Source: the human T2T-CHM13v2.0 reference genome, Homo sapiens | NCBI RefSeq assembly: GCF_009914755.1 | Contig: NC_060925.1 | Strand: one strand, 5' to 3' | DNA length: 64,000 bases | Shown here: positions 4,763 to 5,779 of the stretch, piece by piece | Layout: the number at the start of each line of letters is the position of its first letter | Numbering within the stretch: the first letter of the stretch is position 1 | Notes under the pieces: model-generated | Seen by the model: only the letters and a program-made list of their open reading frames with translations | Databases searched by the model: none | What the model was told of the DNA's origin: nothing | Translations under genes and position numbers: made by a program

Positions 4763-4780
4763 GAAGAAGAAAAGTGGATT

Positions 4781-4905
4781 GCAGACTCACTATGCACCTG
4801 ACTGTACTTCCAGGCAGGTGCTTTTTCTGTCTGCCAGAGAAACATTCCAGGGTGCTGTGGCTGCCTCACCTATCCAGGGCGATGCAGCTCCCTGGGGACA
4901 CAGGT
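4781..4905 (+). ncRNA. SNORA77: Box H/ACA snoRNA SNORA77 (ACA63)
   Basis: Hairpin 1: GCAGAC/GTCTGC lower stem and GCACCTG/CAGGTGC upper stem. H box AGAGAA at 4836-4841. Hairpin 2: CCAGGG/CCCTGG and GCTGC/GCAGC. ACA at 4900-4902 plus 3 nt. 125 nt, intronic, sense to ATP2B4; matches my recollection of ACA63. Confidence 0.92.
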
Positions 4906-5443
4906 GCTTCCTGGGGAGCCCTGAGCACTTCTCCGTGTTGCTGGCCTCACATCCAATTGGGCAGGCATTGGAGTCCGGGCACTGCCTGGAGCTCACCAGA
5001 AGGTGCTTTACAGTGGTCCTTGGTTTGTCTCTCAGAGGGCTTGGTCCCCTCTGCTGTGAGGCTGGACTGCAGCTGTGGTGGCAAGTGACCAGATGTCACT
5101 GAGCAGCCTGACCATGGTCTAGGTGGTGCTTGGATGCATCCACTTGGCTTCCTTTGGTCATTGAGTTTCAAGAAGAGAAACTCCAGGAGACGGCTTGGCC
5201 AGGATCAGGCAAAAACAATCATGCCGAAAAAGTGGCAGAAAAGCTTGAAGGTCTCTCAGTGAAGGAGGAGACCAAGGAGGATGCTGAGGAGAAACAATAA
5301 ATCGTCTTATTTTATTTCCTTTTCCTCTCTTTCCTTTCCTTTTTTTAAAAAAAAATTTACCCTGCCCCTCTTTTTTGGTTTGTTTTTATTCTTTTGTTTT
5401 TACAAGGGATGTTATATGAAGAGCTGAATTAAAAAAAAAAAAA
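4906..5443 (+). pseudogene. Retroposed RANBP1 fragment: intron-like segment, last coding exon, 3' UTR and poly(A) tail
   Basis: 5202-5300 translates GSGKNNHAEKVAEKLEGLSVKEETKEDAEEKQ*, close to the RANBP1 acidic C-terminus (GSGKNDHAEKVAEKLEALSVKEETKEDAEEKQ). U-rich UTR, A-tail 5431-5443, TSD AAGAAAAGTGGA at 4767-4778 and 5452-5463. Confidence 0.88.
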
Positions 5444-5779
5444 AGAAGAAAAAGAAAAGTGGAAAAGGGCTAGGTAGGGAAACGCTAGGGTTCCTTTTCC
5501 CTCTCTCAAGTTCCTCCTCTCAGAAAGAAAATTTCCAGCGGGACCTACACAAAGTGCCTCGTGGCATCCAGGCATCCAGAATCCCCACGCTCACTCCCTA
5601 CCCCACCCCACACTCCAGGCTGCTGACTCCAAGTACCCATAGAACCTGGCGCCTTTGGCTCCCATCTCTAAAGCCCCCAGTGCTTTCCTTTGGGTCTGCT
5701 CTTTCCAAAATAACCTGTCTTTGCTTTGTTTTTCTTCAGGATCAACCACTTCTACTATGTGATTTCTTTTCTCCTAGCC

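What the first reader, a model, noticed from the sequence alone, without database searches (positions are those of the whole stretch)
4767..5463. SNORA77 is the head of an L1-mobilised snoRNA retroposon carrying RANBP1 intron, last exon, UTR and poly(A)
Seen: one TSD-bounded unit (AAGAAAAGTGGA at 4767-4778 and 5452-5463) begins 2 nt before the mature 5' end of an intact H/ACA snoRNA. It continues through ~295 nt of non-coding sequence, a 32-codon match to the RANBP1 C-terminus with stop, a U-rich UTR and an A-tail. Known: snoRNA retroposons of this type are a described class, and I recall a SNORA77 paralogue in a RANBP1 intron. Inferred: the template was a 5'-processed, polyadenylated snoRNA-capped RANBP1 intermediate. 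It landed sense within an ATP2B4 intron and so gained a new host gene.
Basis: partly seen in the sequence, partly recalled or inferred. Interest (0 to 1): 0.8.

Follow-up and report, generated by a model that had tools for sequence, protein, structure and literature searches.

The report
Known SNORA77 retrocopy from RANBP1
SNORA77 heads a reverse-transcribed copy of the tail end of the RANBP1 gene that landed in an ATP2B4 intron during primate evolution; the reading is correct, but this exact case was already published in 2006.

Summary
Window 4779-5430 is colinear with the RANBP1 locus on chr22: SNORA77B, then about 296 nt of the intron after it, the last exon (32 codons plus stop), and the 3'UTR up to a proximal poly(A) site. 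An A-tail follows, and a 12-nt duplication (4767-4778 / 5452-5463) brackets the unit. Identity to the parent is 93%.

Weber 2006 (PMC1687206) describes ACA63/SNORA77 in ATP2B4 as a primate-only "Type-3 snoRNA retroposon" of ACA63B in RANBP1. Luo & Li (PMC1802619) report the empty site in Otolemur and absence in mouse.

- The last 132 nt of the parental intron are missing. Weber said no cryptic splice site explains this. One of the five possible junction registers gives a GC-AG intron ending at the second AG of a TAGCAG acceptor. That second AG is used in 3 of 5 RANBP1 processed pseudogenes.
- The target motif occurs three times. The Alu upstream inserted first, and the retroposon split the Alu's 3' duplication.
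- The retrocopy folds better than the human parent (134 vs 120 bits) but has a G·A mismatch in its guide for 18S U814.

Verdict: real, ordinary, already known.

The parts
4449..4463 (+). 5' target-site duplication of the upstream Alu (AGAAAAGTGGAAAAG). This is the first of three copies of the target motif.
   Evidence: It is identical over 15 nt to 4768-4778 plus 5464-5467, which is the site as it read before the retroposon split it.
4465..4766 (+). Alu element with an A18 tail. It is older than the retroposon and not part of it. It accounts for the rest of Weber's '1027-bp insertion'.
   Evidence: sequence. One search gives Metazoa_SRP-like hits at 4466-4580 and 4599-4746. The S-type label is recalled from diagnostic features and was not tested.
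4767..4778 (+). 5' target-site duplication of the snoRNA retroposon. This is the minimal exact part. It may extend left into the Alu tail: 33 nt at 94% to 5431-5463.
4779..4780 (+). Two bases (TT) that match the parental intron just before the snoRNA.
   Evidence: alignment: window 4779 pairs with L002 1499.
4781..4905 (+). SNORA77 (ACA63), an H/ACA snoRNA. H box at 4836-4841, ACA at 4900-4902. Guide pocket strands at 4787-4793 and 4822-4828.
   Evidence: 134 bits; fold; 18S target context. It differs from SNORA77B at 9 of 125 positions.
4906..5199 (+). First ~296 nt of the RANBP1 intron downstream of SNORA77B. There are 21 mismatches in 293 aligned bases and one 1-nt indel.
5200..5203 (+). 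CAGG junction. These 4 nt are shared by both sides of the missing 132-nt parental segment (L002 1919-2050). Only the register CAG|G gives GC-AG intron ends.
5202..5300 (+). Remnant of the RANBP1 last-exon coding part: 32 codons plus TAA, with 2 amino-acid changes.
   Evidence: (1k5d_B residues 170-201, E 1.6e-11).
5301..5430 (+). RANBP1 3'UTR up to a proximal poly(A) site. The parental TATAAA-type hexamer corresponds to 5415-5420 and is mutated here.
   Evidence: Pseudogenes L005 and L006 end in A-runs within about 10 nt of the same place. L004 reads on to the distal site.
5431..5451 (+). A-rich tail (A14 then GAAGAAAA). Its 3' part may already belong to the duplication.
5452..5463 (+). 3' target-site duplication of the retroposon.
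5464..5467 (+). AAAG, the last 4 nt of the Alu's 3' duplication, cut off from the rest by the retroposon.
   Evidence: read from sequence.

Best explanation
Window 4779-5451 is an L1-mobilised retrocopy, a 'Type-3 snoRNA retroposon' in Weber's terms.

Template RNA (inferred). The template came from the RANBP1 gene on chr22. Its 5' end lay at the SNORA77B snoRNA, most likely because the assembled H/ACA particle stopped 5'-to-3' trimming of a cut or decaying host transcript. Its 3' end was a normal poly(A) tail at a proximal RANBP1 poly(A) site.

Splicing (inferred, about even odds). Before reverse transcription, the last 132 nt of the intron were removed. The most likely route is splicing from a weak GC donor (CAG|GCAGGA) to the second AG of the TAGCAG acceptor of the last exon.

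Insertion (shown by sequence). The cDNA inserted in sense orientation into an ATP2B4 intron. It landed inside the 3' target-site duplication of an Alu that was already there, and made its own duplication of at least 12 nt.

Timing. Insertion came after the split from strepsirrhines. The 7.6% divergence suggests roughly 25-40 million years ago.

New host (inferred; expression is from the literature). In the ATP2B4 intron the snoRNA can again be released by splicing, so it acquired a new host gene. It has kept its fold better than the human parental copy.
For: - Colinearity with chr22 is 93% in two pieces. No other place in the genome carries the intron part (11 matches in all; the others cover only the last exon or only the snoRNA).
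- The chr22 exons encode RanBP1 residues 148-168 and 170-201.
- Divergence is even across the segments: 9/125, 21/293, 7/97 and 8/124. This is what one copying event would give.
- The A-tail and the 12-nt duplication are present. The motif occurs 3 times against 0.10 expected.
- Homology starts 2 nt before the snoRNA.
- The 3' end of the missing segment coincides with the natural acceptor, and 5 registers in ~650 positions is 0.008 by chance. Only 1 of 5 registers has legal ends, and they are GC-AG.
- The required second AG is used in 3 of 5 RANBP1 processed pseudogenes (L006, L007, L008). The first AG is used in 2 of 5 (L004, L005).
- The GC site ranks first, tied with four others at 7 of 9 consensus matches, among 70 GY sites downstream of the snoRNA.
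- The Alu's 15-nt duplication is intact upstream (4449-4463) and split downstream.
- Literature passages: Weber 2006 names this element a Type-3 snoRT and proposes cleavage plus trimming to the snoRNA 5' end. Luo & Li report the empty Otolemur site and testis, cerebellum and ES-cell cDNAs that contain ACA63b.
Against: - Weber's definition of Type 3 asks for the entire downstream intron, and here only ~296 of 425 nt are present. [quoted passage not shown]
- The proposed donor is GC rather than GT. It misses the consensus at +4 and +6 and ties with four other sites.
- The 4-nt CAGG overlap would equally fit a microhomology deletion or a reverse-transcriptase jump.
- No RNA data were available to show that the junction, or a snoRNA-ended polyadenylated RANBP1 RNA, exists.
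- The exact L1 nick cannot be placed, because the duplication merges with the Alu A-tail.
- The retrocopy's guide has a G·A mismatch to 18S G817, so 'intact' applies to its fold and boxes, not clearly to its guide.
Confidence: 0.9

Rival explanations
1. The unit is an ordinary processed pseudogene of an intron-retaining RANBP1 mRNA. L1 reverse transcription stopped early, and the stop fell by chance at the snoRNA 5' end. No snoRNA-ended RNA was involved.
For: - 5' truncation is the rule for L1-made copies (established knowledge).
- cDNAs that contain ACA63b exist, including one from testis (Luo & Li Table 2, passage).
- Five RANBP1 processed pseudogenes show that the gene's mRNAs were often copied.
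Against: - The start lies within 2 nt of the mature 5' end. That is a few positions among many hundreds.
- Three older SNORA77B retrocopies (chr15, chr2, chr1:8.0 Mb) also start exactly at the snoRNA 5' end.
- Weber reports the same start for the class as a whole.
Confidence: 0.05
2. This is a sub-question about the gap only. The 132 nt were lost either by a DNA deletion after insertion or by a reverse-transcriptase jump between the two CAGG motifs, not by splicing.
For: - There are 4 nt of microhomology at the junction.
- Weber found no cryptic splice site for this case.
- The GC donor is weak and is tied with four other sites.
Against: - The 3' breakpoint falls exactly on the natural acceptor (chance about 0.008).
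- One register gives GC-AG.
- The second AG is a proven acceptor in 3 of 5 pseudogenes.
- Weber documents a parallel rat U69/Rpl39 case in which a cryptic donor does explain the truncation.
Confidence: 0.35
3. The similarity comes from a DNA-level segmental duplication or gene conversion between chr22 and chr1, not from an RNA intermediate.
For: None specific. The only support is that the two loci share 650 nt at 93% identity.
Against: - The copy ends in an A-tail at a poly(A) site and is flanked by a target-site duplication.
- It lacks an intron segment up to the acceptor.
- It stops exactly at RNA-processing boundaries.
Confidence: 0.01

Closest known systems
ACA63/SNORA77 Type-3 snoRNA retroposon in ATP2B4 (Weber 2006, PLoS Genet, PMC1687206; Luo & Li 2007, NAR, PMC1802619)
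   Same: It is this very element. The papers give the same parent (ACA63B/SNORA77B in RANBP1), the same content (296 bp of downstream intron plus the last exon), primate-only presence, overlapping duplications with an Alu, and an empty site in Otolemur (passages).
   Different: Nothing differs in kind. It also adds the order Alu first then retroposon, the poly(A) site used, and a copy-by-copy comparison of fold and guide. Their supplementary figures could not be opened, so some of this may already be drawn there.
U70/RPL10 Type-3 snoRTs (Weber 2006)
   Same: They start at the snoRNA 5' end and carry the downstream intron plus processed downstream exons and a poly(A) tail. Many lie in sense orientation within introns.
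   Different: Those carry the entire downstream intron. Here the last 132 nt are missing.
Rat U69/Rpl39 snoRT with truncated intron (Weber 2006)
   Same: [quoted passage not shown] Weber attributes this to a cryptic donor in the intron.
   Different: Weber found a cryptic donor there and none here. The donor proposed here is GC and needs the second AG of a tandem acceptor.
SPA lncRNAs (5' snoRNA-capped, 3' polyadenylated; Wu et al. 2016. Seen here only as a reference entry and in the abstract start of PMC12084880)
   Same: The inferred template has the same two ends: a snoRNP-protected 5' end and a normal poly(A) tail.
   Different: The known SPAs come from the 15q11-q13 locus and carry C/D snoRNAs (recalled). 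Here the RNA is inferred only from its DNA copy, has an H/ACA head, and comes from a protein-coding host. No paper in the library was found that links the two: one search found no listed paper with all three terms. Two papers cite Weber and mention SPA. Of these, the text of PMC11028025 was read and does not connect them. PMC8176728 was searched only for other terms.
RANBP1 processed pseudogenes (chr12, chrX, chr17, chr9, chr17)
   Same: They share the last exon and, for L005 and L006, nearly the same poly(A) site.
   Different: They carry exon 5 joined to the last exon, with no snoRNA and no intron.

Membership tests
Type-3 snoRNA retroposon (Weber 2006) | [quoted passage not shown] | tested here: met
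   Homology to the parent begins at 4779, 2 nt before the annotated and Rfam 5' end at 4781.
Type-3 snoRNA retroposon (Weber 2006) | Contains the entire downstream intron of the parental host gene | tested here: not met
   Only 293-297 of 425 nt are present; L002 1919-2050 (132 nt) is absent. Weber nevertheless files this element as Type 3 and lists it among truncated cases.
Type-3 snoRNA retroposon (Weber 2006) | Followed by the processed downstream exon(s) of the parental gene | tested here: met
   The last exon of RANBP1 is present. Its 32 codons match 1k5d_B residues 170-201, and the UTR is colinear.
Type-3 snoRNA retroposon (Weber 2006) | Poly(A) tail and target-site duplication | tested here: met
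   An A14-led tail lies at 5431-5451. The 12-nt duplication is at 4767-4778 and 5452-5463, with the motif present 3 times against 0.10 expected.
Type-3 snoRNA retroposon (Weber 2006) | Lineage-specific insertion with an empty orthologous site elsewhere | not testable with these tools
   No other primate or mammalian genome is held. Literature passages say primates only, an empty site in Otolemur and absence in mouse.
SNORA77 H/ACA snoRNA family (Rfam RF00599) | Covariance-model score above the gathering cut-off over the full model | tested here: met
   134 bits against 42, model positions 1-125. The parent scores 120.2. Three older copies score 81.6-85.8.
SNORA77 H/ACA snoRNA family (Rfam RF00599) | Hairpin-hinge-hairpin-tail with an H box (ANANNA) and ACA 3 nt from the 3' end | tested here: met
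   AGAGAA is at 4836-4841 and ACA at 4900-4902. The minimum-energy fold equals the Rfam structure at -53.1 kcal/mol.
SNORA77 H/ACA snoRNA family (Rfam RF00599) | Bipartite guide complementary to 18S around U814 | tested here: inconclusive
   The 3' pocket strand pairs with 18S positions 809-813 (5 bp). The 5' pocket strand pairs with 816-821, giving 6 bp in the parent but 5 of 6 in this copy because of a G817·A mismatch from the C-to-A change at 4792. snoSeeker lists 6+5 for both copies.
SNORA77 H/ACA snoRNA family (Rfam RF00599) | Expressed and bound by H/ACA proteins | not testable with these tools
   The literature says only that this group of snoRNAs was cloned from GAR1 immunoprecipitates or shown by Northern blot, and snoSeeker marks it 'N.blot'. 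With 9 differences between the copies, probes may cross-hybridise.
SPA-type RNA (5' snoRNA-capped, 3' polyadenylated) as the template | RNA with a snoRNP-protected 5' end and a poly(A) tail, detected as RNA | not testable with these tools
   It is inferred only from the two ends of the DNA copy.

The most novel reading that the evidence does not exclude
The retroposon may be a DNA fossil of a spliced, snoRNA-headed, polyadenylated RANBP1 RNA, that is, an SPA-like RNA from an ordinary protein-coding host with an H/ACA head. In this reading its internal 132-nt gap is a GC-AG splice onto the second AG of a tandem acceptor, which would settle a case Weber listed as unexplained.

Since the copying, the retrocopy may also have become the better-kept snoRNA while the human parental SNORA77B drifts. 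Among polarised changes, 5 are parent-derived against 1 retro-derived in the snoRNA. In the last exon the counts are 3 against 9 (Fisher p 0.04-0.07). That would be a host-gene switch in progress.
Probability: 0.4. Interest if true: 0.35.

Novelty: already known. Interest (0 to 1): 0.15.

Why it matters
The case shows how a snoRNA can change host gene by retroposition, and that what is annotated as "the" SNORA77 is the young copy rather than the ancestral one. That point was made in 2006, so it adds nothing new for the field.

The residual value lies in two testable details:
- A weak GC donor plus a tandem acceptor may explain the truncated intron. If so, snoRNA-headed RNAs can be spliced downstream of their head.
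- It is unclear which of the two copies actually guides pseudouridine 814 of 18S rRNA. One has the better guide, the other the better fold.

Tried and rejected
I therefore cannot say whether the duplications, the junction or the Alu order are already shown there. The same holds for Luo & Li Supplementary Figure 1a.
- Donor ranking by consensus matches and U1 duplex energy. The GC site is first, but it ties with four others at 7 of 9 and has a modest energy of -6.0 kcal/mol. This is weak support only.
- A link to cytoplasmic dyskerin-bound snoRNA-retaining transcripts: PMC9394076 has no mention of RANBP1, SNORA77 or retroposition.
- Tissue abundance of the two copies: the main text of PMC8176728 mentions none of SNORA77, RANBP1 or ATP2B4.
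- PMC9454646 gives only microarray levels of SNORA77 and nothing copy-specific.
- The minus-strand SNORA77 hit at 4734-4834 (31.4 bits, below the cut-off of 42) was dismissed as noise over the A/T-rich junction.
- The reading that the 132 nt are a later insertion in the parent was rejected. That segment carries the pyrimidine tract and the acceptor of the last exon. The sequence left in the retrocopy before the junction is purine-rich and would make a poor acceptor.
- The relative-rate asymmetry rests on 18-19 polarised sites and on noisy outgroups made of old pseudogenes. It is reported as a trend, not a result. In the snoRNA, 3 of 9 differences could not be polarised; in the last exon, 4 of 16 could not.

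Full report
**What is there.** The region reads as the first stage described. Rfam finds SNORA77 at 4781-4905 on the plus strand over the whole model: 134 bits against a gathering score of 42, E 2.7e-29. It folds as the expected two-hairpin H/ACA RNA at -53.1 kcal/mol, z -2.76. The H box AGAGAA is at 4836-4841 and ACA is at 4900-4902.

The 12-mer AAGAAAAGTGGA lies at 4767-4778 and 5452-5463. Its 11-nt core occurs three times in the window (4449, 4768, 5453). The expectation is 0.10, and 0 of 100 shuffles gave three or more.

**Source of the sequence.** I searched the window's own genome with 4781-5430 and got 11 matches:
- the window itself;
- chr22 in two colinear pieces of 93% identity (query 1-423 and 420-648);
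- six pieces at five places that match only the last-exon part (chr12, chrX, chr17, chr9 and a second chr17 place);
- two that match only the snoRNA (chr15, chr2).

No other place carries the intron part.

The chr22 locus is RANBP1. The exon before the snoRNA-bearing intron encodes residues 148-168 of the Ran-specific GTPase-activating protein (1k5d_B, 21 of 21 identical). Window 5202-5297 encodes 32 residues matching residues 170-201, its C-terminus (30 of 32 identical, E 1.6e-11), followed by TAA.

Base by base, homology starts at 4779, 2 nt before the snoRNA. Mismatches are spread evenly: 9 of 125 in the snoRNA, 21 of 293 in the intron part, 7 of 97 in the coding part and 8 of 124 in the UTR. 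Over 643 aligned bases the Kimura distance is 0.076.

**3' end.** The copy ends at 5430 and an A14-led tail follows. The parent has no A-run there. It has a TATAAA-type hexamer 10 nt upstream, which is mutated in the copy. Two RANBP1 processed pseudogenes (L005, L006) end in A-runs within about 10 nt of the same point. L004 reads on to the distal AATAAA site. The tail was therefore added at a real proximal poly(A) site.

**This is already published.** Passages of Weber 2006 (PMC1687206) make these points:
- ACA63 (=SNORA77) lies in ATP2B4 only in primates, within a 1027-bp insertion.
- ACA63B lies in RANBP1 from human to fishes.
- It is a Type-3 snoRT.
- Its duplication overlaps that of an Alu.
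- Such RNAs arise by cleavage of the host pre-mRNA and trimming to the snoRNA 5' end, while the 3' part is spliced and polyadenylated.

Passages of Luo & Li (PMC1802619) report 92.8% identity between ACA63 and ACA63b, which equals 116 of 125 as counted here. They also report absence in mouse, a clean empty site in Otolemur garnettii, and cDNAs from testis, cerebellum and ES cells that contain ACA63b. snoSeeker (PMC1636440; table passage) lists both copies as guides for 18S pseudouridine 814.

**Detail 1: the truncated intron.** In the parent the intron runs 425 nt beyond the snoRNA. The copy holds the first ~296 nt and lacks L002 1919-2050, which is 132 nt with a 4-nt CAGG ambiguity. [quoted passage not shown]

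Of the five possible registers, four give ends that no spliceosome uses (CA-AG, AG-GC, GG-CA, CA-GG). One gives GC-AG: CAG|GCAGGA ... TAGCAG|G. That register needs the second AG of the tandem TAGCAG acceptor. The second AG is demonstrably used: 3 of 5 RANBP1 processed pseudogenes (L006, L007, L008) lack the CAG at the exon 5/exon 6 joint, and 2 of 5 (L004, L005) keep it.

The GC site has 7 of 9 consensus matches (counting C at +2 as allowed). It ranks first among 70 GY sites downstream of the snoRNA but ties with four others. The 3' breakpoint falls on the acceptor, which a random deletion would do about 0.8% of the time.

I therefore favour splicing, at about even odds overall, over a microhomology deletion or a reverse-transcriptase jump. 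The weak donor and the lack of RNA evidence keep this open.

**Detail 2: order of events.** Upstream of the Alu (4465-4766) lies AGAAAAGTGGAAAAG at 4449-4463. Downstream of the Alu tail the same 15 nt are present but split: 4768-4778, then the retroposon, then AAAG at 5464-5467. This fits an Alu that inserted first with a 15-nt duplication, and a retroposon that later entered that duplication 4 nt before its end.

It also explains why the similarity between the two flanks runs 33 nt at 94% into the A-tails. The reverse order would need an unexplained AAAGA between the duplication and the Alu head. The exact L1 nick cannot be placed because the duplication merges with the A-run.

The Alu looks S-type to me. 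That label is recalled from diagnostic features and was not tested.

**Detail 3: state of the two snoRNA copies.** The genome holds five SNORA77-family matches above the Rfam cut-off: this copy (134 bits), the RANBP1 parent (120.2 bits), and three older copies on chr15, chr2 and chr1:8.0 Mb (81.6-85.8 bits). The three older ones are short Type-1-like retrocopies with A-runs. The chr15 copy has a visible duplication, and the chr1 one lies at the position Luo & Li call ACA63c in RERE.

The human parent folds less well: -43.4 kcal/mol, z -1.14, with both apical stems weakened.

Using the three old copies as outgroups, the 9 differences polarise as follows:
- 5 are parent-derived (4797, 4804, 4839, 4870, 4878);
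- 1 is retro-derived (4816);
- 3 are ambiguous (4792, 4862, 4880).

In the last exon, with L006-L008 as outgroups, the 16 differences polarise the other way: 9 retro-derived, 3 parent-derived and 4 ambiguous. The contrast gives Fisher p 0.043, or 0.074 if 4792 is counted as retro-derived. This is a trend on few sites with noisy outgroups.

Against a simple 'retrocopy took over' story is the guide. 18S reads GAAAAAA-U814-U815-AGAGUG. The parental pocket pairs 5 + 6 bp. The retrocopy's C-to-A change at 4792 puts a G·A mismatch at the second pair from the target.

**Age.** A distance of 0.076 split over two lineages gives about 38, 25 or 17 million years at 1.0, 1.5 or 2.2 x 10^-9 per site per year (the rates are recalled). 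This is compatible with Weber's finding it only in primates and its absence in Otolemur.

**Comparison and verdict.** The element is a member of Weber's Type-3 snoRT class by its author's own filing. It fails the strict 'entire intron' criterion, as Weber noted.

The inferred template has the same end structure as the later-described SPA lncRNAs. I found no paper that connects the two, but that is a resemblance, not a tested membership.

The finding is real, correctly read and already known. Its interest is low. The GC-AG reading and the split between fold and guide in the two copies are the only points worth a follow-up.

Noticed in passing
L004-L008 (chr12, chrX, chr17, chr9, chr17), at the exon 5/exon 6 joint: RANBP1 processed pseudogenes record both AGs of a tandem TAGCAG acceptor. 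Three of five lack the CAG (and so one alanine codon), and two of five keep it. This is a fossil record of alternative acceptor use in germline mRNAs.
   Followed up: partly
L011 (chr15:67147643-67147770, minus) and L012 (chr2:183553224-183553335, minus): Two further SNORA77-family copies score above the Rfam cut-off (85.8 and 82.8 bits). Each has a short A-run after the snoRNA, and the chr15 copy has a 9-nt duplication (AGTGGTTAT). The chr15 ACA box is mutated, and the chr2 copy lacks 13 nt of the 5' hairpin. Neither appears in the part of Luo & Li's table shown, which lists only ACA63b and ACA63c.
   Followed up: partly
window 4449-4463, 4768-4778, 5453-5467: The same target motif was used twice, first by an Alu and then by the snoRNA retroposon 4 nt apart. 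This gives three copies of AGAAAAGTGGA. Weber mentions overlapping duplications for this locus.
   Followed up: yes
window 5777-7053: The annotated single-exon LINC00260 starts 314 nt downstream of the retroposon's 3' duplication, on the same strand, and runs into Alu sequence (6766-7400 is masked). I did not examine whether its transcription relates to the retroposon.
   Followed up: no
L002 1468-1780 (chr22 RANBP1, exon 5 donor onward): Reading by eye from exon 5 through the unspliced donor, the frame seems to stay open across the whole snoRNA for about 100 codons before a TGA. An intron-retaining RANBP1 mRNA would then encode a different C-terminus. This was not checked with a tool or against annotation.
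   Followed up: no
window 4734-4834, minus strand: A weak SNORA77 match on the opposite strand (31.4 bits, below the cut-off of 42) spans the Alu tail and the snoRNA 5' hairpin. I took it as noise.
   Followed up: no
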